DNA of 64,000 nucleotides from Candidatus Polarisedimenticolaceae bacterium (GCA_021647945.1 JAKITT010000008.1:569-64568), one strand, 5' to 3'; counted from the stretch's first letter, positions 10,527 to 48,585 are shown. Notes: a model not told the origin generated them from the letters alone. A program made the numbers and translations.

Positions 10527-10551
10527 ACGAATCGGTGGTTAAGGAGTAAAT

Positions 10552-12603: not shown

Positions 12604-13088
12604 TGAGCAAAGGTATCGTACGGCACGATTTTGAGCCGAAAATCATGGGCTTTGTCTGTAAGTGGTGTACCTATTCCGGTGCCGATCTGGCTGGAACCAG
12701 CCGTATGGACTACTCGCCTCATGTACGCATGGTGCGCTTGCCATGTTCCGGTCGAATTGACCCGCAATTTGTTATCAAAGCCTTTGAACAAGGTGCAGAT
12801 GGCGTCATCATCTCAGGTTGTCACCCAGGTGACTGCCACTACAACGAGGGTAACTATTATGCCCGTCGTCGTAATTTGGCCTTCCGTAATTTGATGGAGT
12901 TCAATGGCATCGATATCAAACGCCTGGAGTTCTCTTGGATCTCCGCCGCTGAAGCGATCAAATTTACGCAGATCATCGATAAATTTACCAATCAAGTGCG
13001 TGATCTTGGGCCCAATGAAGGATACAGAGCGCTGCTTGACCCCTATGCATCTAGATTGGTTAAGTCCTCTGAGGAGTCCGCCGCATGA
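12603..13088 (+). CDS. mvhD: MvhD/FlpD-like (FlxD-like) iron-sulfur subunit
   Basis: IMGFVCKWCTYSGADLAG...VRLPCSGRIDP...GADGVIISGCHPGDCHY is the FlpD/MvhD signature. The start overlaps the hdrA stop (TAATG). Confidence 0.85.
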   Translation: MSKGIVRHDFEPKIMGFVCKWCTYSGADLAGTSRMDYSPHVRMVRLPCSGRIDPQFVIKAFEQGADGVIISGCHPGDCHYNEGNYYARRRNLAFRNLMEFNGIDIKRLEFSWISAAEAIKFTQIIDKFTNQVRDLGPNEGYRALLDPYASRLVKSSEESAA

Positions 13089-13978: not shown

Positions 13979-13980
13979 GA

Positions 13981-15096: not shown

Positions 15097-15951
15097 TTGC
15101 CGAGGACCAGATTAGTGCCAAACATCTACCAACCAAACTTAATGACCATCAAAAAGGTCATTAATGAGACACCTGATACCAAGACTTTCCATCTGGTCTT
15201 TCAGGATGAAGAACTGCAAGAAAACTTTGAGTTCGAGACCGGTCAATTCGGTGAATACTCCTGTTTTGGTGCGGGCGAGAGTACCTTCTGTATCGCCTCT
15301 TCACCGACCCGCAAAGGGCATATCGAGTGCTGTTTTCGTAAAACAGGCAAGGTGACTAACGCACTGTTCGAACTCTCTGAGGGTGACACCATCGGTTTTC
15401 GTGGCCCATTTGGCAATACTTTTCCAATTGAAGAGTGGGAAGGTAAAAATGTCATTTTTGTGGGTGGTGGTATCGCATTGCCTCCACTGCGTTCTGTGAT
15501 TTGGAACCTACTTGACCTGCGTGATAAATATAAAGATATCTCCATCGTCTACGGTGCACGTAGCGTGGCTGATCTTGTATACAAGCAGGAAATCGCTGAG
15601 TGGGAAGCGCGTGATGACGTCAATATGGTCAAGACGGTTGATCCCGGTGGCGAGACGGATGATTGGGATGGCTATGTCGGTTTTGTTCCGCACATTCTTG
15701 AGAACGATTTCAAGCCCGATCCAGAGAACACCGTCGTGGTTGTTTGTGGTCCTCCGATCATGATTAAGTTCACCTTTGAGGCATTAGAGCGTCTGGGTTT
15801 CAAACAGGATCAGCTGATTACCACATTGGAAAATCGTATGAAATGCGGTCTTGGCAAGTGTGGTCGTTGCAACATTGGCTCAACTTATGTCTGCATAGAT
15901 GGGCCTGTTTTCAAAGCTGCTGAGATAGATCTACTTCCTCCCGAGTATTAA
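15097..15951 (+). CDS. FAD/NAD(P)H-binding oxidoreductase subunit with C-terminal 2Fe-2S (AsrB / PyrK / FlxA-like)
   Basis: FNR-like fold (flavin-binding segment FCIASSP, VIFVGGGIALPP) with a C-terminal CGLGKCGRCNIGSTYVCIDGP cluster. The start is ambiguous (TTG 15097 or GTG 15115). Confidence 0.75.
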   Translation: MPRTRLVPNIYQPNLMTIKKVINETPDTKTFHLVFQDEELQENFEFETGQFGEYSCFGAGESTFCIASSPTRKGHIECCFRKTGKVTNALFELSEGDTIGFRGPFGNTFPIEEWEGKNVIFVGGGIALPPLRSVIWNLLDLRDKYKDISIVYGARSVADLVYKQEIAEWEARDDVNMVKTVDPGGETDDWDGYVGFVPHILENDFKPDPENTVVVVCGPPIMIKFTFEALERLGFKQDQLITTLENRMKCGLGKCGRCNIGSTYVCIDGPVFKAAEIDLLPPEY

Positions 15952-15992
15952 GGAAGCGCTGATTAAGAAGAGGCAATCAAGGTCATTTAAGA

Positions 15993-16022
15993 GGCGGGGT
16001 GCAAATGCACCCCGCCTTTTTT
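15993..16022 (+). terminator. Rho-independent terminator closing the nine-gene operon
   Basis: The GGCGGGGTGCA-AA-TGCACCCCGCC hairpin is followed by TTTTTT. Confidence 0.9.
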
Positions 16023-16058
16023 ATGGATTAAACCCAATGACCGTTCAAATTAACTGAA

Positions 16059-16203
16059 GGGGGGTATCCACTTCATTGGTCTTTTTCCGCTCCAGACACT
16101 TTATGCCCGTGTAGGGTTGCATTTATGCGACCAGCCGAACCTGCAAACGTGCACATGAATGTGCACCTACAGCCATATTAGGCCAATGGAGTGGATACCC
16201 CTT
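16059..16203. mobile_element. MITE-like element, copy 1 (about 145 bp, terminal inverted repeats, 9-bp flanking direct repeat)
   Basis: The ends GGGGTATCCACTTCATTGG and CCAATGGAGTGGATACCCC are inverted repeats with 1 mismatch. TTAACTGAA occurs on both flanks (16050-16058 and 16204-16212). A second, inverted copy lies at 49947-50076. Confidence 0.7.
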
Positions 16204-17532
16204 TTAACTGAAATAATCTCGAGAGAGTTTGAATACGACTGGGGCGAGCAGTATGAGTGCGATGAGGTTCGGTAGTGCCATAAGCGCGTTGAGTGTATCG
16301 GCCAATAACCAGATGAAATCAAGCTGAGCCATGGCGCCCAAAGGGATAACAGCTACCCATAAAATGCGGAATGGTGCGATCGATTTGACGCCAAATAGAT
16401 ATTCGACGCAGCGTTCACCGTAGTAACTCCAGCCGAGAATGGTGGTGAAGGCAAATAGCGATAGGGCGATGGTGACGAGATATTCACCCCCGGGGATGGT
16501 GGTTGCGAAAGCTGCTGAAGAGAGCGATGCACCAGTCTTCCCTGTTGTCCATGCCCCCGAAGTGATGATCACTAAACCGGTGATGGTGCAGATGATAAGT
16601 GTGTCGATAAAGGTGCCCAACATGGCGATCAGGCCCTGCTTTACCGGGCTGTTTGTTGTGGCAGCGGCATGCGCAATGGGGGCACTGCCCAGCCCCGCTT
16701 CGTTAGAAAATATTCCACGCGCCACACCAAACTGAATGGCTGCCCACACTGCGGCACCGGCAAATCCGCCAGTAGCGGCGGTGCCTGTAAAAGCGCTGTT
16801 GAAAATAAGTGCAAAAGCAGCAGGAATGGCCTCTGCATTGATAATTAATACAATAAGACCGGCAGCGACATAACTGATGGCCATAAAAGGGACCAGTTTT
16901 CCGGCCACACTTGAGATGCGTTTAATGCCTCCCACAAGCACGGCACCTACGAGTACCATCAGTGTCAGGCCTGTTAGCCAGGTGGGAATGTTAAATGATG
17001 CATTCAGCACGTCAGCCACTGAGTTGGCTTGTACGGTGTTGCCAATCCCGAAACCTGCAATGGCGCCGAATAGCGCGAAAGCGCTGCCCAGCCACGCCCA
17101 TCTGCTGCTGAGTCCATTCTTTATATAGTACATCGGGCCGCCAACATGCATGCCGCGCTCGTCGGTCTCACGATAGTGTACGGCACATACCGCCTCGGCA
17201 TATTTGGTGGCCATGCCAACAAGTGCAGTACACCACATCCAAAAGAGTGCGCCAGGCCCACCCAAAAAGATGGCGGTGGCGACTCCTGCAATATTGCCTG
17301 TACCAATGGTGGCGGCCAGTGAGGTCATCAAGGCGCGAAATGGAGGGATATCGCCCTCGCCGCTGGCTGTTCTGCCTTGCCAGAGTAGTTGGATGCCGAG
17401 TATCAGTTTTCTGGGTGGTAAGAACCGAAGCCCAATCATTAAAAAGAGGCCAGTACCCAAAATGGCTATGAGCATCGGGACGCCCCAAACGATGCCATTG
17501 ATTGACGAAATGAGTTGTTGTAGTGCTTCCAA
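16204..17532 (-). CDS. Alanine/glycine:cation symporter (AGCS family)
   Basis: 442-aa polytopic protein. The N-terminus (INGIVWGVPMLIAILGTGLFL) and GTGNIAGVATAI are typical AGCS signatures. Confidence 0.9.
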   Translation of the reverse strand: MEALQQLISSINGIVWGVPMLIAILGTGLFLMIGLRFLPPRKLILGIQLLWQGRTASGEGDIPPFRALMTSLAATIGTGNIAGVATAIFLGGPGALFWMWCTALVGMATKYAEAVCAVHYRETDERGMHVGGPMYYIKNGLSSRWAWLGSAFALFGAIAGFGIGNTVQANSVADVLNASFNIPTWLTGLTLMVLVGAVLVGGIKRISSVAGKLVPFMAISYVAAGLIVLIINAEAIPAAFALIFNSAFTGTAATGGFAGAAVWAAIQFGVARGIFSNEAGLGSAPIAHAAATTNSPVKQGLIAMLGTFIDTLIICTITGLVIITSGAWTTGKTGASLSSAAFATTIPGGEYLVTIALSLFAFTTILGWSYYGERCVEYLFGVKSIAPFRILWVAVIPLGAMAQLDFIWLLADTLNALMALPNLIALILLAPVVFKLSRDYFS

Positions 17533-17934
17533 TCCCTTGTCTCCCTAGTGTGGATGTTGTTGCAGGCATTATAGTCAGATTGTTTGAGTGATTTTTATTT
17601 GTCCCTCGTCTTGGAGGGGGCAAACAAAAGATAGAAATGGTCGACTTTTGGGGTGGTGTGAAGGTGCATATTGCCCTCTATTACTGATTTCCAGAGGCTT
17701 CATAGGGGCTTCTACAGTCGAAATGTTTTGTATTTAGACGCGATTGCCTTAAAATGCAGCAACCTAAAATTTTTAAGAGCTGAATCAGGACGCAAACTAC
17801 AGAGGTTACTTCGAACCGCTCTCACGAGATCTGTTTGAATACACCAATCAACGTAAGCACACCCTAATCAGAATTCCTGTTTTTCATTAAACGAGAAGCG
17901 GTAGGGTTGGTCTGCGCTGGGTTGCGTCCTTCAT

Positions 17935-20900
17935 TTGGAGGAGAGTACATTGACTAAAGGTATGAAGGTTACTTATGACGGTATTGAAGCTGCCGCCTAT
18001 GTTGCCCACAAAACGAACGAAGTAATTGCTATTTATCCCATCACCCCCTCTTCAGGTATGGGTGAGTTGTGTGATGAATATTCCTCCCAAGGTCAGAAAA
18101 ACATTTGGGGTACTGTCCCTAATGTTACCGAGATGCAACATGAAGGTGGCGCTGTAGCGACCGTTCATGGCGCACTTCAAACCGGCGCAATGACCACAAC
18201 CTTTACATCATCACAGGGTCTCCTGCTGATGATTCCTAGCATGTACAAAATTGCTGGTGAGTTGACGCCTTCTGTTATTCACGTTGCAGCTCGTTCAATT
18301 GCAGCTCAAGGCCTCTCAATTTTTGGTGATCACAGTGATGTGATGTCAATTCGTATGACTGGTTACGCCATCTTGGGCTCTAACACCCCACAAGAGGCGA
18401 TGGATAACGCGCTAATCAGCCAAGCTGCCAGTCTGAAATCTCGCATTCCTTTTCTTCACTTCTTTGATGGTTTCCGTACCTCTCATGAAGTAGCCAATTG
18501 TGAACTACTGGGTGACAAAGTCATTCGCGACATGATTGATGATGAACTGGTTCGTGCTCACCGTCTGCGTGGTATGAGTCCTGATCGTCCCGTTCTACGT
18601 GGCACCTCACAGAACGCTGATGTCTACTTCCAAGGTCGTGAGACGGTCAATACCTATTACGATAAGGTTCCTGGCATCGTTCAGGGGACTATGGATGAGT
18701 TTGCTGCCATGACAGGTCGACAGTACAAACTGTTTGACTACTATGGTTCAGCCGACGCCGAGCGCGTGCTTGTTCTGATGGGGTCGGGCTGTGAAGCGGT
18801 TGAAGAGACGGTTGAAGCACTGAATGCTCAAGGCGAAAATGTTGGCATGATCTGCGTTCGTCTGTTCCGTCCATTCTCACCCCAGCATCTTATTGATGCG
18901 CTGCCAGCCTGTGTTAAGAAAATTGGTGTGCTTGATCGCTGTAAAGAGCCAGGTGCCGATGGCGAGCCCCTCTACAAAGATGTGATCACCGCGTTGGCTA
19001 ACCACAGCATCACCGGTGGTGAGAAATTTGCCAAATTACCACGCGTTGTTGGCGGCCGTTTTGGACTCTCCTCTAAAGAGTTCAATCCTGCGATGATCAA
19101 AGGCATCTATGAAGAGCTAGAGAAAGACGCCCCTAAGAATAACTTCACTGTGGGTATTATTGATGATGTTACCCACACTAGTCTTGAGTGGGACAGTAGC
19201 TACCACACCGTTGACCCTGATCGCGTCAACCAGTGTATCTTCTTTGGTCTTGGTTCAGACGGTACTGTTAGTGCTAACAAGAACTCGATCAAAATTATCT
19301 GTGAAGGCACAGACCTTTATGGCCAGGGTTACTTTGTATACGACTCTAAGAAAGCGGGTGCGGTTACCACCTCACATCTGCGTTTCGGTCCAGATAAGAT
19401 CCGCTCAACCTATCTAATTGGTAAAGGCCAAGCTGGGTTTGTTGCCTGTCATCAACCTATCTTCCTTGATCGCTACGAGATGCTTGATTTCGCTAGAGAG
19501 GGTGGCATCTTCCTGCTCAATACGCCTGCTTCACCTGCAACCGCTTGGAGTACGCTACCGAAGAAGGTTCAGGAACAGATCGTTGAGAAGAGTCTCGATG
19601 TCTATGTAATCGACGCCTATAAAGTGGCTGAAGAGAGCGGCATGGGTCGTCGTATCAACACCATCATGCAGACCTGTTTCTTCGCTATCTCTGGCGTTCT
19701 CTCTAGTAAAGAGGAGGCGATTGCCAAGATTAAAGAGGCTGCTGAGAAGACCTACGGCAAAAAAGGCCAACAGGTTGTTGATCAGAACTTTAAGGCAATT
19801 GATGCTTCTGTTGCCAGCATGCACAAAATTGATGTGCCAAAAGCTGTCAGTTCTAACATTCCTATGATTCCACCTATCATGCCATCTGCACCAGAATTTG
19901 TGCGCGATGTTGTTGGTGCAATCAGCGCCGGACGTGGTGATGAATTGCCTGTTAGTGCTATCCCAGCTGATGGTACATGGCCAACCGGTAGTGCTGCATT
20001 TGAGAAGCGCAACCTAGCCCTAGAGATTCCTGTATGGGATGAAGATCTCTGTATCTACTGTGGTAAGTGTGTATTTGTCTGCCCTCACTCCGCTATTCGA
20101 AGCAAAGTGTTTGATGTTGCGCTGACTAAAAATGCACCTGAGACCTTCAAGCACATCCAGGTGACAGGTAAGGAGTTTGCTGAAGGTGAGCACATTACCT
20201 ATCAGGTCGCGCCTGAAGATTGCACGGGCTGTACGCTCTGCGTAGAGATCTGTCCTGCCATCGATAAAGAGAACCCAGCACATAGAGCGCTGGATATGAT
20301 GCCACAGCCTCCTATACGTGACCAAGAGCGCGAAAACTGGGAGTTCTACCTGACACTGCCTGAGTATGCTCGCGATAAGATCAAATGGGGCACCATGAAG
20401 AGCGCCATGCTAGCAGAGCCACTGTTTGAGGCTTCTGGCGCATGTGTTGGCTGTGGTGAGACCGCTTACATCCGTCTTGCGACCCAGCTATTCGGTGACC
20501 GTATGGTTATCGGTAACTCAACCGGCTGTTCATCAATCTACGGTGGTAACCTACCAAGCACGCCTTACTCTAAAAATGCCCAGGGTAGAGGGCCAACCTG
20601 GAACAACTCACTGTTTGAGGATACGGCAGAGTTTAGTCTTGGTTTTCGTGTCTCTATCGATCGTCAAGAACAGTACGCTTTAGAGCTACTCGAGAAGATG
20701 CGTGATCAGATTGGCGGTGATGTGGTTGATGAGATCAAATCTGCTGACCAGACAACTGAGCCAGGAATTTTTGAACAGCGTGACCGCATTGATCTTGTTA
20801 AAGCCAAGTTGAGGGGTATTGACAGCAACGATGCGCGTAACCTTGAGACTGTCGTTGATATGGCGGCTAAGAAGAGTGTTTGGGCCTTTGGTGGAGACGG

Positions 20901-21537
20901 CTGGGCATACGATATCGGTTATGGTGGATTAGACCATGTTCTCGCTTCTGGTCAGAATATAAACATTCTGGTTCTGGATACTGAGGTCTACTCCAACACC
21001 GGTGGTCAGATGTCAAAATCGACCCCACTCGGCGCAGTCGCTAAGTTTGCTGCTGGCGGTAAACCAAGCAAGAAGAAAGATCTTGGTATGATCGCAATGG
21101 CCTATGAAGGCGTCTATGTTGCACAGGTCGCCTACAGTGAGAAAGATGTTCGCACCTTGAGAGCATTCCAAGAGGCTGAGTCTTACGAGGGTGTCTCTCT
21201 GATCATCGCTTATAGTCCTTGTATTGCGATGGGCATCGATCTAACCGACAACCATCAGCAGCAGCATCTTGCGGTTACTAGTGGTCACTTCCCACTCTAC
21301 CGTTACGATCCACGTCGTGTTGATGAGGGTAAGAATCCACTGATCCTAGACTCTAAGCCACCAAGTATCGACTATAAGGACTTCAGTAAAACAGAAGGAC
21401 GCTTTAGCATGCTGGCTCGTTCTAAGCCTGAGCAGGCTGCTAAGTTTGTTGAAATGGCACACAATGATGTTCGTCGACGTTTCAAATATTACGAATCTCT
21501 AGCCGCTATTAACTTCGATAAACCTGAAGATAAGTAG
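17935..21537 (+). CDS. nifJ: Pyruvate:ferredoxin (flavodoxin) oxidoreductase, single-polypeptide NifJ/PFOR type
   Basis: About 1190-1200 aa. Two ferredoxin motifs (CIYCGKCVFVCP, CTGCTLCVEICP) and the TPP motif GGDGWAYDIGYGGLDH. The start is ambiguous (TTG 17935, TTG 17950 or ATG 17962). Confidence 0.95.
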   Translation: MEESTLTKGMKVTYDGIEAAAYVAHKTNEVIAIYPITPSSGMGELCDEYSSQGQKNIWGTVPNVTEMQHEGGAVATVHGALQTGAMTTTFTSSQGLLLMIPSMYKIAGELTPSVIHVAARSIAAQGLSIFGDHSDVMSIRMTGYAILGSNTPQEAMDNALISQAASLKSRIPFLHFFDGFRTSHEVANCELLGDKVIRDMIDDELVRAHRLRGMSPDRPVLRGTSQNADVYFQGRETVNTYYDKVPGIVQGTMDEFAAMTGRQYKLFDYYGSADAERVLVLMGSGCEAVEETVEALNAQGENVGMICVRLFRPFSPQHLIDALPACVKKIGVLDRCKEPGADGEPLYKDVITALANHSITGGEKFAKLPRVVGGRFGLSSKEFNPAMIKGIYEELEKDAPKNNFTVGIIDDVTHTSLEWDSSYHTVDPDRVNQCIFFGLGSDGTVSANKNSIKIICEGTDLYGQGYFVYDSKKAGAVTTSHLRFGPDKIRSTYLIGKGQAGFVACHQPIFLDRYEMLDFAREGGIFLLNTPASPATAWSTLPKKVQEQIVEKSLDVYVIDAYKVAEESGMGRRINTIMQTCFFAISGVLSSKEEAIAKIKEAAEKTYGKKGQQVVDQNFKAIDASVASMHKIDVPKAVSSNIPMIPPIMPSAPEFVRDVVGAISAGRGDELPVSAIPADGTWPTGSAAFEKRNLALEIPVWDEDLCIYCGKCVFVCPHSAIRSKVFDVALTKNAPETFKHIQVTGKEFAEGEHITYQVAPEDCTGCTLCVEICPAIDKENPAHRALDMMPQPPIRDQERENWEFYLTLPEYARDKIKWGTMKSAMLAEPLFEASGACVGCGETAYIRLATQLFGDRMVIGNSTGCSSIYGGNLPSTPYSKNAQGRGPTWNNSLFEDTAEFSLGFRVSIDRQEQYALELLEKMRDQIGGDVVDEIKSADQTTEPGIFEQRDRIDLVKAKLRGIDSNDARNLETVVDMAAKKSVWAFGGDGWAYDIGYGGLDHVLASGQNINILVLDTEVYSNTGGQMSKSTPLGAVAKFAAGGKPSKKKDLGMIAMAYEGVYVAQVAYSEKDVRTLRAFQEAESYEGVSLIIAYSPCIAMGIDLTDNHQQQHLAVTSGHFPLYRYDPRRVDEGKNPLILDSKPPSIDYKDFSKTEGRFSMLARSKPEQAAKFVEMAHNDVRRRFKYYESLAAINFDKPEDK

Positions 21538-39389: not shown

Positions 39390-41612
39390 TTATACCGCAT
39401 CAATCAAGGCATTGAAGGTTGCGCTTGGGCGCATGACCGCAGTGATTTTTGCTTCATCAGGCATGAAGTAACCGCCCATGTCGACAGGTACACCCTGAAC
39501 GGCATTCATCTCACCGACAATCTTCTGCTCGTTCTCAGCCAGAGTTTTTGCCAGTGGGGCGAATTGTGCTGCCAGCGCTGCATCATCACTCTGATTGGCC
39601 AAAGCTTCTGCCCAGTACATGGCCAGGTAGAAGTGGCTGCCACGGTTATCCAACTCGCCACACTTACGTGAAGGTGATTTGTTGTTATCCAGCAGTTTGC
39701 CAGTCGCTTGGTCAAGTGCAGTTGCCAGCACTTTAGCCTGAGTGTTGCCCGTCAGTGTGCTGACCTGCTCCAGAGAAGGTGCCAGTGCCAGGAACTCACC
39801 GAGTGAATCCCAACGTAGGTGATTCTCTTTAACCAGCTGCTGAACGTGCTTAGGTGCAGAACCACCTGCGCCGGTCTCAAACAGACCGCCACCGTTCATT
39901 AGAGGAACGATAGAGAGCATTTTCGCACTGGTGCCCAGCTCGAGGATTGGGTAGAGATCGGTGTTGTAGTCACGTAGTACGTTACCGGTGACAGAGATGG
40001 TGTTCTCACCAGCACGTTGACGCTCTATAGAGAGCTTGGCTGCGTCATAGACAGACATGATGCGGATATCAAGACCACTGGTGTCGTGGTCTGGTAGGTA
40101 GGCATCAACCTTTTTACGGATCTCACGACCATGGCTGCGATCTTCATCAATCCAGAAAATCGTTGGCCAACCCGTCGCGCGAGCACGAGTAACTGCCAAT
40201 TTCACCCAATCCTGAATGGAGGCATCTTTGACCATAACCATACGCCAGATATCACCCTCTTCTACTGCATTTTCGAGGATGGTGTCGCCGTTAGAGTCAA
40301 CCACGCGGATGGTGCCGTTGGCTGGAGCTTCAAAGGTAGTAGGGTGTGAACCGTACTCTTCAGCTTTGTTTGCCATCAGGCCAACATTAGGCACGGTGCC
40401 CATGGTGGTGACGTCAAGTGCACCGTTAGCAATACAGTTCTCAATGGTTGCGCTGTAGAGCGGTGAGTAGCAGTGATCAGGGATGACGAACTTGGTATCT
40501 TGCAGTTCGCCAGCAGCATTCCACATACGGCCAGAGGTACGGATAGCGGCAGGCATAGAGGCGTCGATGATGACGTCACTTGGAACGTGCAGGTTGGTGA
40601 TGCCTTTGTCAGAATCAACCATGGCGATAGAAGGACGTGTGGCGTAAACAGCCTCAATGTCCGCTTTGATCGCAGCTTGTTGATCTTCAGGCAGGCACTC
40701 GATTTTGGTGTAGAGATCGCCAAGACCGTTGTTGAAGTTGATGCCTAGTTTTTCAATAACAGCAGCATTTTTCTCAATCGCATCTTTGTAGAAAACCTTG
40801 ACGCAGTGACCGAAAACGATAGGGTCGGCGACTTTCATCATGGTCGCTTTCATGTGCAGTGAGAAGAGTACGCCTTTGGCTTTAGCATCTTCGATCTGCT
40901 CGCCAAGGAATTTTACCAGCGCATTTTTGCTCATGAAGGTGGTGTCAACAATCTCACCAGCTAGCAGAGGCACACTTGCTTTCAACACGGAGATGCTGCC
41001 ATCTTGAGCAACAAACTCAACTTTGGCATCGGTGGCGGCAGCCATGGTGGTTGAGCGCTCGTTAGAGCAGTAATCACCGCTGCTCATGGTGGAGACGTGT
41101 GACTTAGAATCTGTGCTCCAAGCGCCCATTGAGTGAGGGTTCTTTTTGGCAAAGTTCTTAACAGCACTTGGGGCGCGGCGATCAGAGTTACCTTCACGCA
41201 GTACAGGGTTTACAGCAGAACCAAGCACTTTTGAGTAACGCTCTTTGATTTCAGCTTCAGCTGCGTTCTGCGGATCTTCTGGGTAGTCAGGTAGGTCGTA
41301 ACCTTTGCCCTTCAGCTCAACCAGTGCCGCTTTTAGCTGTGGCAGTGAAGCAGAGATATTAGGCAGCTTAACGATGTTAGCTTCTGGGGTTTTAGCCAGT
41401 ACGCCTAGACGAGCCAGCTCATCAGGGATTTTCTGATCTTCAGAGAGGTTATCAGGGAAGTTGGCGATGATACGGCCAGCCAGAGAGATATCTCTAGATT
41501 CAACATCTACGCCAGCCGCTTGGGTGAAGGCGTTAACGATGGGTAGAAAAGAGTAGGTTGCCAAAGCGGGCGCTTCGTCAATCTTTGTCCAGATAATCTT
41601 GGATGTAGTCAT
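39390..41612 (-). CDS. icd: Isocitrate dehydrogenase, monomeric NADP type
   Basis: 740 aa. The N-terminus ([22 protein letters not shown]) and overall length are diagnostic of the monomeric IDH family. Confidence 0.95.
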
Positions 41613-41832: not shown

Positions 41833-44550
41833 TTAGCCAGCGTATTTACACTTGCTAGCAGCGGTACGCGTATCCATATTCTTACCACGGTTGGTGTGAT
41901 CATCAATCTCTGCAGCGGAGCCGATCATACGACCAAACAAGAATGTGGTGAACGCAGCTGATTCCATGGTGTTATCACTGATTTTGCCTTCAGCATACGG
42001 CTGCCAAAGCATTTTCAGTAGAAGAACAGCAATCACAGCATCAACATTTACACAGAAAACATTCTTTGTCACGCCGGTATCAAAGAGTGACTGTACGAGC
42101 TCTTTATAGAACTCGTGGAAAACATTGTAGTCGCCACGCTCTTCAAACAGCTTACCAACAAAGGCTTCGCGAGGATCATAGTTAACAGCCTCACCCTTGA
42201 AGACCGGATGGCCTGTACAAGGAATTTTGGCGTAACCGATGTTGCCGGCTGCTTTTGCTTTGATCTTGTACGCGAGGTACTCCTTCGCGTAGGTGGTTGC
42301 CATCGCTTTCAGATCTAAACCGTGATCTTTACTACCAGGATCGGTCAGGCCAGAGTCTTTGAAACGATCAACCAAGAAGGAGATCGCCTCATAACCGTTA
42401 CCACCGTGTGCATAACCGGTGTGAGTCAGGAAGCCGATGTAGCCTTTATTGATCTGAATACGCTCTGGAACCTCAGGGCCATCCGCAGAGACAGCGCCTT
42501 TAGCGCCCTGTGCAGAGATGGTGCCTGGGCCGTTGGTGATGATCAGGCCAAGCAGTACAGAGAAGGAGTAGAGTTCCTCTTCGTTTGGACGTTTGCCCAG
42601 CAGTGCCAAATGAGCTGTTTCACTGAAACTCCAGCTGTTGAGCAGGTCACTGTTAGCTACACCACAGAAGGTATCAGCACTCTGCTGATCGCCAGCGGCG
42701 GCAGAACCGACCAGGGTACTGAAGATCTTGAAGTGCCAAGGGATATTTCTGACGGTGATGGCAGAGATGCGCTTACGCATCAGAGCCTTCCAAGCGACGT
42801 GCGTGGTGGTGGCAGCCATCAGCGCAGCAGCGCTCAGCTGAGCACCCGCTTTCTCGGCAACCGCTTTGACGAAGTTGACGAAGATTGAGTTGGCACCACG
42901 TGCTTCAAATGCAGCAGCGATGTTGTCGCTCAAAGCACAAGGCTCGCCCATGGTGAAGAGTGATGCGTCAGCTTCTGCAACCTGAGAGCTGAAATCATAG
43001 CGGGTGTCAGAAGCATCTTCGATACCGCTCTTCTTGAACAGCTCTACCAGAGCAGCCGCAGCAGTACGTGCATTGGCAACCTGATTAGGGCCAACCAGCG
43101 CAACAGCGCTTGATAGTGAGGTGTTAGGGCTGTTGCCCGCTTCACGTGCAGCATCAGCTGCCGCTAGGCCAACTTTGCCTGCTTGATTAACAAAGGCGTT
43201 GAGCATGACGTTGGTCATAGCGGTGCCGTTTGCATCGGGGTATTCGCGGGTCAGACTCTGTACCAGATTCTCTTCGAAACTGTGTGTGGAGGCATCTAGC
43301 ACGGTGGTGCCGTGGATACGCGTGACCTGGGTCTTCGGATCCATCATTGATGCGCCAGAGGTATCTTTCATCGCTTGGCGAGGGAAGACAGCGCCGACCT
43401 GTTCAGAAAGCGCAGCGATCTGATCATTGTAGGGTTCAAGTGCTTCAACCAATGCAGGCTTCAGCGCGGCAGGAAGATCAAGTCCCTGGGTGTTGCTGAA
43501 CCAGCATTTGAGTGAGAGATCACCACGAGGGGCGAAATCTGGCTCTGCTTTGCCGAGTGCCATCACCGCGGTCATAGCGGCTGGGATGTGGGCGATGTTG
43601 GTAACAACTGCACCTTTAGCGCTACAGACTGGATTCTCTGGAGAGAAGATGTCATCGACTTCGAACTTCTCTTTGAACCAATCTTCCTTGGCTTCAGCGT
43701 TATCACCAGTACCGGCGATAGCACCGGCATGGCCACACGCTTTGGTCAGTTTGGCTTTCCAGCGACCAACGATACAAGCGACAACAGGCTTGTTGAACTC
43801 AAGCTTGTGCTCATAGTAACCACCAGGCTCAATGTACATGACGGCACATTTGGAGCGGTCATCATTATGGAATGCATGGGTCCACTCTAGTGCGCCAAAG
43901 TGGATGTAGACATCCTTACCTGATGAGTAAGATACGGTGGTTCCCCAACCGCCAGTCAGCAGATAGACTGCGATGGTGGTGGTGAAGTTACCGGAGTTTG
44001 AGTAGATCGCAACAGAACCAGGAACCAAAGACTCAGCAGGATGACTACCACCCAGTGCGCCGCCGATACGGATCTGTTTGTGTGCATCAGCTAGACCGAG
44101 GCAGTTAGCACCGAAGATGTCGACGCCGTGCATCTGGCCTACCGCGCGGATGATACGTGCATCATGAACCGGCACTTTCTCGGTCAGGATGACGATTTTT
44201 TTCAGGTTCGAGACGACGCGAATCGCTTCGATAACGCCGTCACGTACGCCACCAGGTGGCAGGTAGACAACAACGGTGTTGAACTCATGACCAGCAGCCA
44301 ACGCTTGTGGCAGGTTATCAAATACTGGAATGTTGCCAATTTTGGTCTTCATTGAAGAACCAGAACGGCCTGGAGCGGTACCACAAACAATGTTGCCACC
44401 TGAGAAGACATGGCTTACAGGGGTAACGGTGCGGCTTTCGCCACCGGTGATATTGAGAACGCAGATGCGATCATCTTTGCTGACTAAATCGTCTAGCGAG
44501 TTAACGCCCACATAGTAGTGGGGGAATGCTTCAACGCCTTGCGGATGCAT
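41833..44550 (-). CDS. aclA: ATP-citrate lyase large subunit-like protein (SCS-alpha-like CoA-ligase domain, long insert, citrate-synthase-like lyase domain)
   Basis: Succinyl-CoA-synthetase-alpha signatures (GANCLGL, YSNSGNFTT, phosphohistidine loop ACGHAGAIAGTG). C-terminal citrate-synthase-like motifs (YAHGGNGYEA, GHPVFKGEAVNYDPRE, VNVDA). I place the start at ATG 44550 (AGAGGG RBS, 7-nt spacer), giving 905 aa. The track start at 44592 has no RBS. Confidence 0.8.
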   Translation of the reverse strand: MHPQGVEAFPHYYVGVNSLDDLVSKDDRICVLNITGGESRTVTPVSHVFSGGNIVCGTAPGRSGSSMKTKIGNIPVFDNLPQALAAGHEFNTVVVYLPPGGVRDGVIEAIRVVSNLKKIVILTEKVPVHDARIIRAVGQMHGVDIFGANCLGLADAHKQIRIGGALGGSHPAESLVPGSVAIYSNSGNFTTTIAVYLLTGGWGTTVSYSSGKDVYIHFGALEWTHAFHNDDRSKCAVMYIEPGGYYEHKLEFNKPVVACIVGRWKAKLTKACGHAGAIAGTGDNAEAKEDWFKEKFEVDDIFSPENPVCSAKGAVVTNIAHIPAAMTAVMALGKAEPDFAPRGDLSLKCWFSNTQGLDLPAALKPALVEALEPYNDQIAALSEQVGAVFPRQAMKDTSGASMMDPKTQVTRIHGTTVLDASTHSFEENLVQSLTREYPDANGTAMTNVMLNAFVNQAGKVGLAAADAAREAGNSPNTSLSSAVALVGPNQVANARTAAAALVELFKKSGIEDASDTRYDFSSQVAEADASLFTMGEPCALSDNIAAAFEARGANSIFVNFVKAVAEKAGAQLSAAALMAATTTHVAWKALMRKRISAITVRNIPWHFKIFSTLVGSAAAGDQQSADTFCGVANSDLLNSWSFSETAHLALLGKRPNEEELYSFSVLLGLIITNGPGTISAQGAKGAVSADGPEVPERIQINKGYIGFLTHTGYAHGGNGYEAISFLVDRFKDSGLTDPGSKDHGLDLKAMATTYAKEYLAYKIKAKAAGNIGYAKIPCTGHPVFKGEAVNYDPREAFVGKLFEERGDYNVFHEFYKELVQSLFDTGVTKNVFCVNVDAVIAVLLLKMLWQPYAEGKISDNTMESAAFTTFLFGRMIGSAAEIDDHTNRGKNMDTRTAASKCKYAG

Positions 44551-44741
44551 AATATATCCCTCTTTAAAATCTATATTCTGAGACCCTTTCACGATTCATG
44601 TTTTTCGCTCCAGCGGCGTTAAAAACTTTCTCAAAACCCTCATTTACTCCAGTAAACTCCGGTTTTGCGACTGTTTTTGCTTTGCTGGAACAAAAACTAT
44701 TTCTCGTGCAAAGGTCTCATTCTATGAGTGTCGTTACCGAT

Positions 44742-46016
44742 TTATTCGGTAATGCCCAGTTTCTTGGCAATCTGCTCACGACCACCCTTCTTCATCCACT
44801 CATCAGCGGCTTGAGCGTAGTTAACTACTTCGCTCATGGCTGAGTCGTAACCAAACATCTGGTATGGGATGCCGAGAGAATCTAGGGTGTCACGCAGGTA
44901 ACCGAGGCCACGAATCAAGTTCGGGCCACCACGACCAACCACAACATAAAGTGGGGTAGGGCCGTACTTGTTGAAGTGGTCACGCAGGGCATCAGCCATG
45001 GCGCGGAAAGTCTCATAGATATCGGTGTTGTTAGCTTTACCACCGATGATGAAGAGCACGTTGGACTGCTCCAACCAGTATTTGTAAACAATACGGCTGA
45101 TGTCGTGCATCTTCTCGTAAGGAGGGTTACCGCCAAAATCTGAAGAGAGGTTGGCTGAATCACCCAGAAGTTCAGTGACCAGCGCGTTGGCACCACCACC
45201 GAAAGTCATCGCTGCTATAGTGCCTTGATCATTGATGACGTAGACGTCAGATTGACCCTGGTAGGTACGCAGCTGGTTAACTTCTTGCTCAAAGTCAGAG
45301 TAGCTGGAGGTGTCCAGATCGTCTGGCAGGCCAAGACGCGCAACCGATGGGTCATCGCCATCAAAAGCACATTTGAAGTCACAAGCGACAGGGATCAAGC
45401 GCCCATTTTTGCCTGGCATCATGCGAATAGGGTTGATCTCTAGGGTGGCCATACCGTAGTTGTGGTAGAGATCCCAGAGTTTAGGCAGGTTCTGTACCAG
45501 TGGGCTGATCAGCTCTTTTGGGGCACCCAGTTTGTGCAGTGCATTGGAGATAACAAAACCCTTCAGGCCAGTGAGAGGATCGAATGGGATGACTGCAATC
45601 TTCTCAGGTGGCAGCTCTTCGATATCAACACCACCATGATGAGTCAGGGTGATGACAGGGGCACGAAACTCGGTGCTGTCGCTGATAGAGAAGTAGATTT
45701 CGTACTCAGCCGGCACACCACCTTCAAAGGTGACGCCTTCAGCTTTAGAGACGTTGTTGTTTTGGATATGTTCGGCAAAGTAGAGACGCTCTTTCTCTTT
45801 CATCGCGTCAGCCAGATTAGTGCAATTGCCCATGAGGCCAAGTTTACCTTTCTTGCCAACACCGCCTTTAAAGATCGGTTTGATAAAAACCCGACCACAA
45901 CGGTCGATCAGATCTTTGACCTGCTCACCGGTGGCTTCTGGTCCCAACACCTCTGACGTGGGGAAACCCACATATTTAAGGAGTTTAGACCCCCATAACA
46001 TGCCTGTAACTTGCAT
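44742..46016 (-). CDS. aclB: ATP-citrate lyase small subunit-like protein (ATP-grasp, SCS-beta-like)
   Basis: 424 aa. ATP-grasp N-half (VFIKPIFKGGVGKKGKLGL) and SCS-beta-like C-half (FGGGANA, GGNPP). It lies directly upstream of aclA on the same strand. Confidence 0.8.
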   Translation of the reverse strand: MQVTGMLWGSKLLKYVGFPTSEVLGPEATGEQVKDLIDRCGRVFIKPIFKGGVGKKGKLGLMGNCTNLADAMKEKERLYFAEHIQNNNVSKAEGVTFEGGVPAEYEIYFSISDSTEFRAPVITLTHHGGVDIEELPPEKIAVIPFDPLTGLKGFVISNALHKLGAPKELISPLVQNLPKLWDLYHNYGMATLEINPIRMMPGKNGRLIPVACDFKCAFDGDDPSVARLGLPDDLDTSSYSDFEQEVNQLRTYQGQSDVYVINDQGTIAAMTFGGGANALVTELLGDSANLSSDFGGNPPYEKMHDISRIVYKYWLEQSNVLFIIGGKANNTDIYETFRAMADALRDHFNKYGPTPLYVVVGRGGPNLIRGLGYLRDTLDSLGIPYQMFGYDSAMSEVVNYAQAADEWMKKGGREQIAKKLGITE

Positions 46017-46027
46017 ATGTTTAGCTC

Positions 46028-46963
46028 CTAGATTCCTGTTTCAGCAACAGTTGTCTTCACTGCGTTTAAGGTAGTTTCAAGTAAATTCTGTTCTTCGGGG
46101 GTTAGCTCGAACTCAAGGATCTTTTCGATGCCGCCTGCGCCAATCACGCAGGGCACGCCCATAAAGTAACCGTCGATCCCATACTCACCCTCACACAGAG
46201 CGGCGGATGGAATGACGCGTTTTTTATCTTTTAGATAGGCTTCAGCCATCTCAACCACGGCGGCTGCCGGGCTGTAGAAGGCGCTGCCATTGCCGAGTAG
46301 CTGCACGATTTCAGTGCCCGCTTCGCGGGTACGTTCAGCGATCTCCTCGATCTTCTCAGCAGAGAGCAGATCGGTGATCGGTACGCCGCCAATAGTGGCG
46401 GTGCGGATCAGTGGGATCATGGTTGGGCCGTGGCCGCCCATCACCAGTGCGGATACATCCTGCACTGAGAGGCCAGTCTCCATCGCCAGAAAGGTCTTGA
46501 AGCGAGCAGTATCAAGACTGCCTGCCATGCCGACGATCTGGTTTTTAGGGAAACCGGTAAATTTATGGAATGCGTAGACCATCGCATCCAGTGGATTGGT
46601 GGTTAGCACGACAAATGCATTAGGTGCGTGGGTTTTGATCGATTCGGCGACGGACTTCATCACCTTAAGATTGATCTCTGTGAGGTCATCACGGGTCATG
46701 CCCGGCTTGCGTGGTACACCCGCAGTGATCAGCACGATATCAGCACCTTTCAGTGCTGCAAAATCACCACTGCCGGTGAGTTCAACGTCATAACCGTCAT
46801 GAGGGCGTGAGGCCATCAGATCCAGCATCTTGCCTTTGACCGTTCCTTCCATCTGAGGAAGATCGATCATCACAACGTCGCCTAGCTCTTTCTCTGCGCA
46901 TATCATAGCCAGGATGCCACCGATCTGGCCTCCCCCAATCAACGCAATCTTTTTTCTACCCAT
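46028..46963 (-). CDS. mdh: Malate dehydrogenase (LDH-like MDH)
   Basis: KIALIGGGQIGG, GVPRKPGMTRDDL, LDTARF and GGHG signatures. Confidence 0.95.
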   Translation of the reverse strand: MGRKKIALIGGGQIGGILAMICAEKELGDVVMIDLPQMEGTVKGKMLDLMASRPHDGYDVELTGSGDFAALKGADIVLITAGVPRKPGMTRDDLTEINLKVMKSVAESIKTHAPNAFVVLTTNPLDAMVYAFHKFTGFPKNQIVGMAGSLDTARFKTFLAMETGLSVQDVSALVMGGHGPTMIPLIRTATIGGVPITDLLSAEKIEEIAERTREAGTEIVQLLGNGSAFYSPAAAVVEMAEAYLKDKKRVIPSAALCEGEYGIDGYFMGVPCVIGAGGIEKILEFELTPEEQNLLETTLNAVKTTVAETGI

Positions 46964-47289: not shown

Positions 47290-48585
47290 ATGGCAGCAAA
47301 AACCTTCACACTTACGGATAACAGTAATAACAGATCAATGGAGTTGCCCGTCCGGCAGGGTACCCAGGGGCCGCCGACCATTGAGATTGCCAGCCTTTAT
47401 AAAGAGATGGGTGTCTTTACCTATGATCCTGGTTTCCTTGGAACCGGCAGCTGCAACAGTGCTATTACCTATATAGATGGTGAGGAGGGTATCCTTCAGT
47501 ACCGTGGTTACCCGATTGAGCAGCTGGCCGAGAAGAGCTCGTTTCTCGAAGTGGCCTATCTGCTGCTTTATGGTGAGTTACCGGCGGCTACTGAGCTGGC
47601 AACATTTGAGAATATGATCATTCATCACACTATGATCAATGAGAACCTGAAGAACCTCTATAACGGTTTTCATTATGATGCCCATCCAATGGCGATCATG
47701 ACCGGTGTGGTTGGCTCTCTGTCGGCGTTCTATCACGATTCACTTGATATCCATAACCCGCGGCACCGTGAGATCTCTGCGCATCGGCTGATTGCTAAAA
47801 TGCCTACCATTGCTGCGGCTAGCTACAAGCACAGTAAATGTGAACCGTTTATCTACCCCAGAAACGATATGGGGTTTTGTGCCAACTTTCTGCACATGAT
47901 GTTCGCCTCACCCTGCGAAGAGTATGTGCCAGACCCCGTGGCGGTTAAGGCCATTGAAGTGCTCTTTATACTGCATGCTGATCATGAACAGAATGCCAGC
48001 ACCTCTACCGTGCGTTTGGCAGGTAGCTCGCAAGCTAACCCATTTGCCTGTATCGCCGCCGGTATCGCCTCTCTTTGGGGGCCAGCGCATGGTGGTGCCA
48101 ATGAGGCGGTACTTAACATGTTGGAAGAGATCGGTGATGTTTCACAGGTTGAGAAGTATGTTCTCAAAGCGAAAGATAAAGATGACCCTTTTCGTCTGAT
48201 GGGTTTTGGCCATCGGGTCTACAAAAATTATGACCCGCGTGCCCGTATTATCCGCAAGGTGTGCCATGAAGTATTAGCAAGTACCGGTCATGCCGATAGC
48301 CCCTTGATGGAGTTGGCGGTCAAATTGGAAGAGATTGCACTGAAGGATGACTACTTTATCGAGCGTAAACTCTACCCTAATGTCGATTTCTACTCCGGCA
48401 TCATCTATCGGGCGCTTGGTATCCCTAATAATATGTTCACGGTGATGTTTGCCATCGCCCGTTCGGTGGGTTGGACCGCACATTGGATGGAGATGATTGC
48501 TGACCCAAGCCAGCGTATCGGTCGGCCACGCCAAGTCTATGATGGCGCACCAAAGCGGGATTATGTTCCTGTAGATAAACGATAA
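47290..48585 (+). CDS. gltA: Citrate synthase (type II)
   Basis: [24 protein letters not shown] and PNVDFYSG motifs, 431 aa. Confidence 0.95.

What the first reader, a model, noticed from the sequence alone, without database searches (positions are those of the whole stretch)
41833..46016. Divergent ATP-citrate lyase: large subunit about 300 aa longer than canonical bacterial AclA
The pair is an ATP-grasp/SCS-beta-like protein of 424 aa followed by a protein with an SCS-alpha-like N-terminus and a citrate-synthase-like C-terminus. That is the ACL architecture. The phosphohistidine loop ACGHAGAIAG lies near residue 275 of the 905-aa form. The clear citrate-synthase-like motifs (HGGNG, GHPVFK..YDPRE, NVDA) appear only after about residue 700. 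Canonical AclA from green sulfur bacteria is about 600 aa, so roughly 300 residues are extra. This extra region spans about positions 330-630, is Ala-rich, and has no motif I can name. It sits between the ligase and lyase parts. A divergent type II ACL has been proposed from genome data for a few proteobacteria, including tubeworm symbionts, but as far as I know the role of the extra region is unexplained. A 190-nt untranslated spacer separates aclB from aclA.
Basis: partly seen in the sequence, partly recalled or inferred. Interest (0 to 1): 0.6.

Follow-up and report, generated by a model that had tools for sequence, protein, structure and literature searches.

The report
Type II ATP-citrate lyase, duplicated lyase domain
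This gene pair is a typical member of the named but biochemically untested "type II" ATP-citrate lyase family, and its large subunit is about 300 residues too long mainly because it carries a second, catalytically dead copy of its own citrate-cleaving domain.

Summary
aclB (424 aa) and aclA (905 aa from the ATG at 44550) lie on the minus strand between mdh and a monomeric IDH gene, inside a reverse-TCA gene island. All quoted motifs are present. The extra region is Ala-rich and matches no Pfam family or PDB sequence.

The pair belongs to the "type II ACL" family proposed by Hügler and Sievert in 2011. At least 553 species genomes from many phyla carry it, not just a few proteobacteria.

The extra region resolves into two parts:
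- Residues 332-416 are a family-specific linker with an invariant, probably flexible loop (RQxMKDxSGASMMDPKTQ).
- Residues 417-630 are a degenerate tandem copy of the protein's own C-terminal citryl-CoA-lyase (CCL) domain. Profile-profile alignment gives 97% probability and E 3e-11, and shuffled controls stay at 3.5% or below. An AlphaFold model of the insert alone finds only CCL modules in the PDB. The copy lacks all three catalytic residues, which are invariant in the real domain.

I could not test what the dead domain does. A scaffold or pseudo-dimer partner for the live domain is my inference.

The 190-nt spacer is not a family feature. It is a 45-nt spacer plus a 139-nt MITE-like insertion.

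I found no paper describing the duplication, but earlier agents in this scan reported it on other genomes.

The parts
44742..46016 (-). aclB, type II ACL small subunit (424 aa): ATP-grasp plus citrate-binding domain
   Evidence: Pfam Citrate_bind 2.4e-19 and ATP-grasp_2 1.4e-14. Best PDB sequence hit is the citryl-CoA synthetase large subunit 6hxq_B at 1e-39. It is the only Citrate_bind protein in the genome.
44551..44741 (-). aclB-aclA intergenic spacer (191 nt), expanded by an insertion
   Evidence: The spacer is 45 nt in the closest relative L087.
44580..44718 (-). 139-nt MITE-like insertion with about 15-bp terminal inverted repeats GAGACC(C)TTT(G/C)CACGA and a 5-bp AGAAT target duplication (44575-44579 and 44719-44723)
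   Evidence: Clean indel against L087. Partial copies lie on three other contigs of the genome. No Rfam match.
41833..44550 (-). aclA, type II ACL large subunit (905 aa plus stop)
   Evidence: [quoted passage not shown]
43558..44550 (-). Residues 1-331: SCS-alpha / CcsB-like CoA-binding and phosphohistidine domain
   Evidence: PDB sequence hits: 6hxq_A 2.4e-29, SCS-alpha chains 1e-27 to 1e-15, Chlorobium AclA 5e-11. Foldseek TM 0.77-0.85 to these chains.
43729..43731 (-). Codon of His274, the predicted phosphohistidine (GHAGA loop)
   Evidence: Invariant in 44 of 44 family members. Sequence checked.
43303..43557 (-). Residues 332-416: family-specific linker with no detectable relative
   Evidence: No Pfam match, no PDB sequence match and no hhalign match to any other part of the protein. 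28 of 85 columns are at least 95% conserved. The model is mostly coil with low pLDDT.
43327..43389 (-). Residues 388-408: near-invariant loop VFPRQAMKDTSGASMMDPKTQ, predicted flexible
   Evidence: Conservation. pLDDT is below 50 in both models.
42661..43302 (-). Residues 417-630: degenerate, catalytically dead duplicate of the citryl-CoA-lyase (CCL/CSH) domain
   Evidence: hhalign against the protein's own C-terminal domain gives 97.2% probability, E 2.9e-11 and 202 columns, with controls at 3.5% or below. Foldseek on the insert-only model gives Hydrogenobacter CCL 6hxp as the top hit (E 2.2e-4, TM 0.61), and the next 36 hits are all ACL/ACLY structures aligned through their CCL module. The catalytic His/His/Asp are absent.
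41836..42660 (-). Residues 631-905: catalytic citryl-CoA-lyase-like domain, with H715 (42406-42408), H781 (42208-42210) and D837 (42040-42042)
   Evidence: NCBIfam citryl-CoA lyase NF004869 at 2.5e-11 over residues 644-919 of the 919-aa form. H715, H781, D837 and four Arg are invariant in 116 of 116 members. Best PDB sequence hit is CCL 6hxp_A at 0.039.
46028..46963 (-). mdh (malate dehydrogenase), upstream gene on the same strand
   Evidence: Pfam Ldh_1_N and Ldh_1_C. The same synteny is seen in L087.
39390..41612 (-). Monomeric isocitrate dehydrogenase, downstream gene on the same strand
   Evidence: Pfam IDH at 1264 bits. IDH is adjacent to aclA in many related loci.
47290..48585 (+). gltA, the only canonical citrate synthase of the genome, divergently transcribed
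8856..21537 (+). rTCA-type context: TfrA-like flavoprotein, HdrA-like and Fe-S proteins, and a 1200-aa pyruvate:ferredoxin oxidoreductase
   Evidence: Pfam. This matches the tfr/hdr plus acl island described by Rubin-Blum et al. 2019.

Best explanation
The two genes encode a type II ATP-citrate lyase.

The small subunit (ATP-grasp plus citrate-binding domain) and residues 1-331 of the large subunit (CoA-binding domain with phosphohistidine His274) form the citryl-CoA-synthesising half. Residues 631-905 are a citryl-CoA-lyase-type domain with the citrate-synthase catalytic set His715/His781/Asp837. It would cleave citryl-CoA to acetyl-CoA and oxaloacetate. In this genome that is the committed step of a reverse TCA cycle.

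The extra roughly 300 residues have two parts:
- Residues 332-416 are a linker found only in this family. It contains a near-invariant, probably mobile loop.
- Residues 417-630 are a tandem duplicate of the lyase domain that has lost every catalytic residue but is still under constraint.

What is shown: the architecture, the duplication, the loss of catalytic residues, and the family-wide conservation.

What is inferred: the ACL activity itself, which no purified type II enzyme has demonstrated, and the role of the dead domain. My guess at that role is structural. In canonical ACL the lyase domains of four chains build the oligomeric core. Here the dead copy may serve as a built-in partner surface for the live lyase domain.
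For: - Architecture and motifs.
[quoted passage not shown] Literature.
- Duplication by sequence: with 116 family members, hhalign of residues 417-630 against 631-905 gives 97.2% probability, E 2.9e-11, 202 columns and 45 identities in the window protein. The reversed control and 20 column-shuffled controls score 10-24, at 3.5% probability or below.
- Duplication by structure: AF2 of the insert alone has pLDDT 85.9 (above 90 across the helical domain). Foldseek finds only CCL/ACL lyase modules at the top: 6hxp at E 2.2e-4 and TM 0.61, then 36 further ACL/ACLY entries, then citrate synthases.
- The two type II domains are far closer to each other than either is to type I lyase domains (hhalign score 79 against 22-25). 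This points to a duplication within this lineage.
- Dead versus live: H715, H781, D837, R794, R874, R888 and R895 are invariant in 116 of 116 members in the C-terminal domain. The aligned positions in the copy are variable or deleted.
- Constraint on the copy: 34 of 214 columns are at least 95% conserved, and it is present in every full-length member.
- Role in the cell: this is the only Citrate_bind protein in the genome, with one citrate synthase and no RuBisCO found. PFOR and a TfrA/Hdr-like cluster are in the window, and a second 2-oxoacid:ferredoxin oxidoreductase lies elsewhere.
Against: - No purified type II enzyme has been assayed, as far as the searchable literature shows. Activity is inferred from cell-extract, proteomic and transcriptomic work on symbionts, as cited.
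- The scaffold or pseudo-dimer role is untested. I had no access to model coordinates, PAE or multimer prediction.
- The Foldseek E-values for the dead domain are modest (2e-4 to 5e-2) with TM about 0.5-0.6.
- The type I profile used is shallow (6 sequences).
- The MAG is 94.6% complete, so the absence of RuBisCO or of another citrate-cleaving enzyme is not certain.
- Earlier notes in this scan report the same family beside citrate-uptake genes in soil heterotrophs, so the family is not tied to CO2 fixation.
Confidence: 0.8

Rival explanations
1. The dead lyase copy is a regulatory module. It would bind a metabolite such as CoA, acetyl-CoA, citrate or oxaloacetate and tune the ligase or lyase activity allosterically, rather than acting as a scaffold.
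For: The domain keeps a confident CCL fold and has conserved patches, for example W587, R594, W605 and the PWHFRIFSTLVGSAA segment. From my own recollection, untested here, the lyase module of human ACLY has been reported to bind CoA.
Against: The residues that make the canonical oxaloacetate/citrate pocket are variable or deleted in the copy: the two His, the Asp and the Arg equivalents of R874, R888 and R895. No ligand-binding motif was detected.
Confidence: 0.2
2. The extra region is not an insertion. It would be the remainder of one large, full-length citrate-synthase-like domain.
For: The whole region from about 417 to 905 is helical and of citrate-synthase-family fold. Citrate synthases appear among the lower Foldseek hits.
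Against: hhalign maps residues 421-623 onto columns 8-255 of the 275-residue C-terminal domain. These are the same structural elements repeated, not complementary ones. The top structural matches are 256-265-residue CCL modules, with TM 0.5-0.6 normalised to the target, not 360-430-residue citrate synthases, which give TM about 0.25-0.3.
Confidence: 0.05
3. The enzyme is not a CO2-fixation ACL in this organism. It could serve citrate catabolism or acetyl-CoA supply, or act on another tricarboxylate, with the reverse-TCA context being incidental.
For: A canonical citrate synthase is encoded divergently next to the operon. Earlier scan notes place the family beside citrate transporters in aerobic heterotrophs (untested here). 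NCBIfam scores are far below the cut-offs of every curated model.
Against: PFOR, a TfrA/Hdr-like cluster and a second 2-oxoacid:ferredoxin oxidoreductase are present, and no RuBisCO was found. The same mdh-aclBA-idh synteny occurs in tubeworm symbionts, where rTCA use is supported by proteomic, enzymatic and isotopic data as cited. The Citrate_bind domain passes Pfam's threshold (70 bits against 26.8).
Confidence: 0.15
4. The dead copy is a decaying relic with no function, tolerated only as a spacer.
For: It is the least conserved part of the protein (mean majority-residue frequency 0.68, against 0.82-0.84 for the catalytic domains) and is Ala-rich.
Against: It is retained at nearly constant length in every full-length member across several phyla, down to about 31% identity in the insert. 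It has 34 columns at least 95% conserved. It is modelled with pLDDT above 90.
Confidence: 0.07

Closest known systems
Type II ATP-citrate lyase (proposed by Hügler & Sievert 2011; Ca. Endoriftia persephone and other tubeworm symbionts, Thioflavicoccus mobilis, Magnetococcus; Thiel et al. 2012 PMC3522073; Rubin-Blum et al. 2019 PMC6315080)
   Same: Same two-gene aclB-aclA layout, same 905-925-aa large subunit, and 60-77% identity to the named symbiont and Magnetococcus proteins. The mdh-aclBA-idh synteny and the tfr/hdr rTCA island are also shared.
   Different: Nothing essential differs, so this is a member of the family. This copy has a MITE-like insertion in the intergenic spacer, and no RuBisCO gene was found in the genome, whereas the tubeworm symbionts carry RuBisCO. 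The papers I could read do not describe the domain make-up of the extra region.
Citryl-CoA synthetase (CcsA/CcsB, PDB 6hxq) plus citryl-CoA lyase (Ccl, PDB 6hxp) of Hydrogenobacter thermophilus
   Same: These are the best solved-structure matches for all three catalytic parts. AclB matches CcsA at 1e-39, the AclA N-terminus matches CcsB at 2.4e-29, the C-terminal domain matches Ccl at 0.039, and the dead domain matches Ccl by Foldseek at 2.2e-4. The overall chemistry is the same two steps.
   Different: In Hydrogenobacter the lyase is a separate protein. Here it is fused to the small ligase subunit and is present twice, once dead. A sister relation between type II AclB and CcsA has only weak support in a tree (81/38, long branches). 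CcsA is about as similar to this genome's own SucC as it is to AclB (31% each).
Type I ATP-citrate lyase (Chlorobium limicola AclB/AclA, PDB 6hxj; Methanothrix ACL, 6hxi; human ACLY)
   Same: Same order of modules (ATP-grasp, citrate-binding, CoA-binding with phospho-His, lyase domain) and the same catalytic residue types. Foldseek aligns the whole chain to these structures.
   Different: The type I large subunit is about 616-620 aa with one lyase domain directly after the ligase part. Sequence similarity is much lower: AclB against Chlorobium AclB gives 1e-8, and the AclA N-terminus against Chlorobium AclA gives 5e-11. The type II and type I lyase-domain profiles barely recognise each other (hhalign E 0.03).
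Succinyl-CoA synthetase (SucC/SucD)
   Same: Homologous ATP-grasp and CoA-binding/phosphohistidine folds.
   Different: Scores are far below the NCBIfam cut-offs (115 against 336 for SucD, 64 against 370 for SucC). The small subunit has a citrate-binding domain and the large subunit has two CCL-fold domains. The genome has separate sucC and sucD homologs on contig C136.

Membership tests
Type II ATP-citrate lyase | Adjacent aclB-like (about 420-450 aa) and long aclA-like (about 900-925 aa) genes | tested here: met
   424 aa and 905 aa, adjacent on the same strand. The same pairing is seen in 77 of 80 related loci.
Type II ATP-citrate lyase | High full-length sequence identity to the proteins on which the type was proposed (Endoriftia, Magnetococcus) | tested here: met
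   75% identity overall to Ca. Endoriftia persephone (P0020), 68% to Magnetococcus marinus MC-1 (P0067) and 70% to the M. massalia 'putative type II ACL AclA' (P0062).
Type II ATP-citrate lyase | About 300 extra residues between the ligase and lyase parts, conserved in the family | tested here: met
   Residues 332-630 are present in all full-length members. The insert alone finds 273 cluster representatives, and those listed are family members or gene fragments, with no clearly different architecture among them.
Type II ATP-citrate lyase | ATP- and CoA-dependent cleavage of citrate to acetyl-CoA and oxaloacetate | not testable with these tools
   I found no assay of a purified type II enzyme in the searchable literature.
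Type I ATP-citrate lyase (Chlorobium/human) | ATP-grasp plus citrate-binding domain in the beta part | tested here: met
   Pfam ATP-grasp_2 and Citrate_bind are both over threshold.
Type I ATP-citrate lyase (Chlorobium/human) | Phosphohistidine in a GHAG loop of the alpha part | tested here: met
   ACGHAGAIAG with His274 invariant.
Type I ATP-citrate lyase (Chlorobium/human) | A single lyase (CSH) domain directly following the ligase part, giving a large subunit of about 610-620 aa | tested here: not met
   905 aa, with a linker and a second, dead CCL-fold domain before the catalytic one.
Type I ATP-citrate lyase (Chlorobium/human) | Homotetrameric lyase core holding four ligase modules | not testable with these tools
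   No multimer prediction or model coordinates were available.
Citryl-CoA synthetase / citryl-CoA lyase system (Aquificaceae) | Lyase encoded as a separate protein of about 260 aa | tested here: not met
   The lyase domain is fused to the CcsB-like part in one 905-aa ORF. No other citrate-synthase-family gene exists in the genome apart from gltA.
Citryl-CoA synthetase / citryl-CoA lyase system (Aquificaceae) | Closest sequence relatives among solved structures | tested here: met
   6hxq_B at 1e-39, 6hxq_A at 2.4e-29 and 6hxp_A as the top, weak hit. Clade membership is unresolved in the tree.
Succinyl-CoA synthetase | Score above the NCBIfam equivalog cut-offs for SucC and SucD | tested here: not met
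   115 bits against 336, and 64 bits against 370.

The most novel reading that the evidence does not exclude
The dead-plus-live tandem of lyase domains forms an intramolecular pseudo-dimer. Two large subunits, instead of four, would then build the four-domain lyase core seen in canonical ACL. The type II holoenzyme would be an (alpha-beta)2 complex with two live and two dead lyase sites. The invariant flexible loop at residues 388-408 would help pass citryl-CoA between the ligase and lyase sites. Type II ACL would also represent a second, independent fusion of a CCS-like ligase with a CCL-like lyase, and so a convergent route to ATP-citrate lyase.
Probability: 0.3. Interest if true: 0.6.

Novelty: new member of a known kind. 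Interest (0 to 1): 0.4.

Why it matters
ATP-citrate lyase is the diagnostic enzyme of the reverse TCA cycle. The type II form is what tubeworm symbionts, Magnetococcales, many Nitrospinota and many sediment sulfur oxidisers carry. It has remained "putative" since 2011, and public annotation calls it merely a "CoA-binding protein" or "succinyl-CoA synthetase alpha subunit".

Knowing that the unexplained 300 residues are a linker plus a dead duplicate of the lyase domain has three uses:
- It gives clear domain boundaries for expression constructs.
- It gives a concrete hypothesis about oligomeric state and stoichiometry.
- It gives point mutants to test (H274, H715, H781, D837, and the 388-408 loop).

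It also supports better annotation rules for carbon-fixation surveys. For this window the result is mainly confirmatory, since the gene pair is an ordinary, intact member of that family.

Tried and rejected
- Pfam scans of the insert and of its two halves at E<=10 gave only chance-level hits.
- A phmmer search of residues 285-425 against PDB sequences gave nothing. An hhalign of the linker against every other part of the protein and against type I AclA also gave nothing.
- hhalign of the lyase and pseudo-lyase profiles against the window's own GltA as a single sequence was too weak to map residues. I relied on the motifs directly instead.
- The full-length profile against the PDB detected only the N-terminal domain.
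- Foldseek on the full-length model was dominated by SCS-alpha hits. I therefore modelled the insert separately.
- I checked whether the 190-nt spacer is a conserved regulatory RNA. There is no Rfam hit and no promoter or terminator signal above shuffled expectation. The length varies among relatives, and the excess is a MITE-like insertion.
- I compared that insertion with the MITE noted earlier at 16.06 and 49.95 kb and found no relation.
- A tree of beta-type subunits, meant to test a CCS origin, put type II with CcsA only at 81/38 support on very long branches. It is unresolved. The CcsA and Methanothrix rows were partial sequences transcribed from the HMMER alignment.
- I tried to reach Leptospirillum-type CCS through the phylum of locus L030. 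That phylum holds only 14 genomes, and the extra hits are SucC-like.

Full report
**What is there.**
On the minus strand, window 44742-46016 encodes a 424-aa protein. Window 41833-44592 holds a 919-aa frame. The real start of the second gene is the ATG at 44550, which gives 905 aa. It has an AGAGGGA ribosome-binding site about 8 nt upstream, and nearly all relatives are 905-925 aa and start MHPxGV.

The genes sit in the order mdh, aclB, aclA, monomeric IDH. A canonical citrate synthase (gltA) and a Crp/Fnr-type regulator lie divergently upstream. Further upstream the window carries a TfrA-like flavoprotein, HdrA-like and Fe-S proteins, and a 1200-aa pyruvate:ferredoxin oxidoreductase. This is the reverse-TCA island layout described for tubeworm symbionts and some Chromatiaceae (PMC6315080).

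**Check of the observation.**
All quoted motifs are present: ACGHAGAIAG with His274, HGGNG with His715, GHPVFK with His781, and NVDA with Asp837.
- In the small subunit, Pfam finds ATP-grasp_2 and Citrate_bind.
- In the large subunit it finds CoA-binding and Succ_CoA_lig at the N-terminus and a weak Citrate_synt match at the C-terminus.
- NCBIfam's citryl-CoA-lyase model matches residues 644-919 of the 919-aa form.
- Nothing matches the middle, even at E<=10.

Solved type I AclA chains are 616-617 aa, so about 300 residues are extra. That stretch is 19% Ala, against 10-11% in the flanks.

**What family it is.**
The insert alone retrieves 1763 proteins at E<=0.001 from the 5.8-billion-protein collection. 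The best are 905-925-aa proteins from several groups:
- Ca. Endoriftia persephone;
- the Escarpia and Seepiophila symbionts;
- Sedimenticola, Rhodocyclaceae and Magnetococcales.

An exhaustive phmmer of the insert against 1.8 billion cluster representatives finds 273 hits. Those listed are full-length family members or shorter gene fragments, and no clearly different architecture appears among them.

They include Sedimenticolaceae, Chromatiaceae, Thiomargarita, Magnetococcales, Nitrospirota, Nitrospinota, Thermodesulfobacteriota and a Rokubacteria MAG. In one phylum reached through a locus (Nitrospinota-like), 104 of 120 genomes have a Citrate_bind protein, and 21 of the 30 loci I sampled are type II.

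The literature names the type (Hügler & Sievert 2011, as cited in PMC3522073) and notes its oddity in Nitrospina gracilis (PMC3578206). None of the papers I could search explains the extra region or reports an assay of purified enzyme.

**What the extra 300 residues are.**
The SCS-alpha fold continues to about residue 331. The AF2 secondary structure shows this, and Foldseek gives TM 0.77-0.85 to SCS-alpha and CcsB chains.

I sliced a 116-member family alignment and ran profile-profile comparison. Residues 417-630 align to the protein's own C-terminal domain, residues 631-905, over 202 columns. The result is 97.2% probability, E 2.9e-11 and score 79. The window protein itself shows 45 identities, about 22%. 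Matching segments include:
- ALVELFKKSGIEDASD against FLVDRFKDSGLTDPGS;
- AFEARGANSIFVNFVKAV against LFEERGDYNVFHEFYKEL;
- HVAWKALMRKRISAITVRNIPWHFKIFSTLVGSAAAGDQQ against KMLWQPYAEGKISDNTMESAAFTTFLFGRMIGSAAEIDDH.

The reversed control and 20 column-shuffled controls score 10-24, with probability at most 3.5%. Ala-rich composition therefore does not explain the match.

A structural test agrees. An AF2 model of residues 296-632 alone has pLDDT 85.9 and pTM 0.73, with pLDDT above 90 across the helical part. In a Foldseek search of the PDB, its top hit is the Hydrogenobacter citryl-CoA lyase 6hxp (E 2.2e-4, 247 columns, TM 0.61). The next 36 hits are all ACL or ACLY structures, matched through their citryl-CoA-lyase module. 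Citrate synthases follow.

The two type II domains resemble each other far more than either resembles type I lyase domains. The hhalign score is 79 against 22-25, with the caveat that the type I profile has only six sequences. The simplest history is a tandem duplication within the type II lineage.

**Live and dead copies.**
In the C-terminal domain, H715, H781, D837, R794, R874, R888 and R895 are invariant in 116 of 116 members. By motif these correspond to the citrate-synthase His/His/Asp set and its substrate-binding arginines.

At the aligned positions of the first copy the picture is different:

| Catalytic residue | Equivalent in the first copy |
|---|---|
| H715 | E, Q, K or R |
| H781 | lies in a deletion |
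| D837 | Q, S, N, D or A |
| R874 | T |
| R888, R895 | deleted |

The copy is nevertheless retained at constant length in every full-length member, down to about 31% identity in the insert. It has 34 columns at least 95% conserved.

That leaves about 85 residues (332-416) with no relative anywhere. This linker is mostly coil in the models. It contains a near-invariant loop, RQxMKDxSGASMMDPKTQ at residues 391-408, with pLDDT below 50. That combination is typical of a functional mobile element.

**How it most likely works.**
By homology, the reaction would run in four steps:
1. ATP phosphorylates His274.
2. Citrate bound by AclB is activated to citryl-phosphate.
3. CoA attack gives citryl-CoA.
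4. The C-terminal lyase domain cleaves citryl-CoA by a retro-Claisen reaction using D837, H715 and H781.

These steps are inferred from conserved residues and from the solved type I and CCS/CCL enzymes. They are not shown for this family.

For the dead domain I favour a structural role, as a built-in partner surface for the live lyase domain and hence for the oligomeric core. The reasons are that its substrate pocket is destroyed, its fold is kept and its length is fixed. A regulatory ligand-binding role is the main rival.

**Role in this genome.**
The assembly is a 3.43-Mb MAG, 94.6% complete. It has one citrate synthase (gltA in the window), one Citrate_bind protein (this AclB), no detectable RuBisCO large subunit, and two 2-oxoacid:ferredoxin oxidoreductase alpha-type genes. 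If the organism is autotrophic, this enzyme is its only evident citrate-cleaving step, and the reverse TCA cycle is its only evident carbon-fixation pathway. Tubeworm symbionts, by contrast, carry both cycles.

**Relation to known enzymes.**
All three catalytic parts find the Hydrogenobacter CCS/CCL system as the best solved relative:

| Part | CCS/CCL hit | Type I ACL hit |
|---|---|---|
| AclB | CcsA 1e-39 | Chlorobium AclB 1e-8 |
| AclA N-terminus | CcsB 2.4e-29 | Chlorobium AclA 5e-11 |
| C-terminal lyase domain | Ccl 0.039 (top hit) | none |

However, CcsA is about as similar to this genome's SucC as it is to AclB (31% each). In a maximum-likelihood tree of beta-type subunits, the type II plus CcsA grouping has only 81/38 support on very long branches. 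Whether type II ACL is an independent CCS-CCL fusion remains open.

**The spacer.**
The 191-nt aclB-aclA gap is not a family feature. It ranges from about 0 to 333 nt (one outlier of 819) in 77 related loci. In the closest relative, which is 95% identical in protein, it is 45 nt.

Alignment shows a clean 139-nt insertion at 44580-44718. It has roughly 15-bp terminal inverted repeats, a 5-bp AGAAT target duplication and a very stable fold. Partial copies lie on three other contigs. It matches no Rfam family and is unrelated to the MITE at 16 kb. It is a MITE-like element that landed in the spacer, apparently without adding a terminator.

**Verdict.**
The gene pair is an intact, ordinary member of the known but biochemically untested type II ACL family.

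The useful addition is the domain-level explanation of the extra length: a linker plus a dead duplicate of the lyase domain. I did not find this in the searchable literature. Three earlier agents of this scan reached the same reading on other genomes, and I re-tested it here from scratch with controls.

Noticed in passing
window 44575-44723: A 139-nt MITE-like element lies in the aclB-aclA spacer. It has terminal inverted repeats GAGACC(C)TTT(G/C)CACGA, a 5-bp AGAAT target duplication and a fold of -59 kcal/mol. It is absent from the closest relative. Partial copies lie at G000 C159:10111-10241 (84% identity), C62:13533-13606 and C79:3960-4006.
   Followed up: yes
whole genome G000: No RuBisCO large-subunit gene was found in this 94.6%-complete MAG, although its closest named relatives (tubeworm symbionts, Sedimenticolaceae) usually carry both the Calvin and reverse TCA cycles. 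The organism may rely on the reverse TCA cycle alone.
   Followed up: partly
L139-L142 (G116:C71, G119:C22, G120:C67, G118:C78): Bacterial MAGs of a Nitrospinota-like phylum encode single-chain, 1024-1028-aa ACLY-like proteins in which the beta and alpha parts are fused as in eukaryotes. Two-subunit type I and type II forms occur in the same phylum.
   Followed up: partly
G001 (genome of L055): C98:7464-7964 and C28:3170-3664: One genome carries both a type I ACL (AclB 410 aa plus AclA 619 aa) and a type II ACL.
   Followed up: no
window 41798-41825: A perfect 12-bp GC-rich palindromic hairpin (AACCGGGCCGGC...GCTGGCCCGGTT) lies just after the aclA stop and before the IDH gene. It may be an intra-operon terminator, attenuator or RNA-stability element.
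   Followed up: no
L131/L121, L132/L123, L133/L124, L136/L120 (G131:C36, G133:C105, G134:C199, G132:C76): In a small candidate phylum of 14 genomes, a SucC-like gene lies about 3 kb downstream of type II aclB on the same contig, directly after aclA. This suggests that succinyl-CoA synthetase and type II ACL genes are clustered there.
   Followed up: no
window 38404-39120: A PEP-CTERM-tailed secreted protein gene lies immediately beside the IDH gene. It is unrelated to the ACL operon.
   Followed up: no
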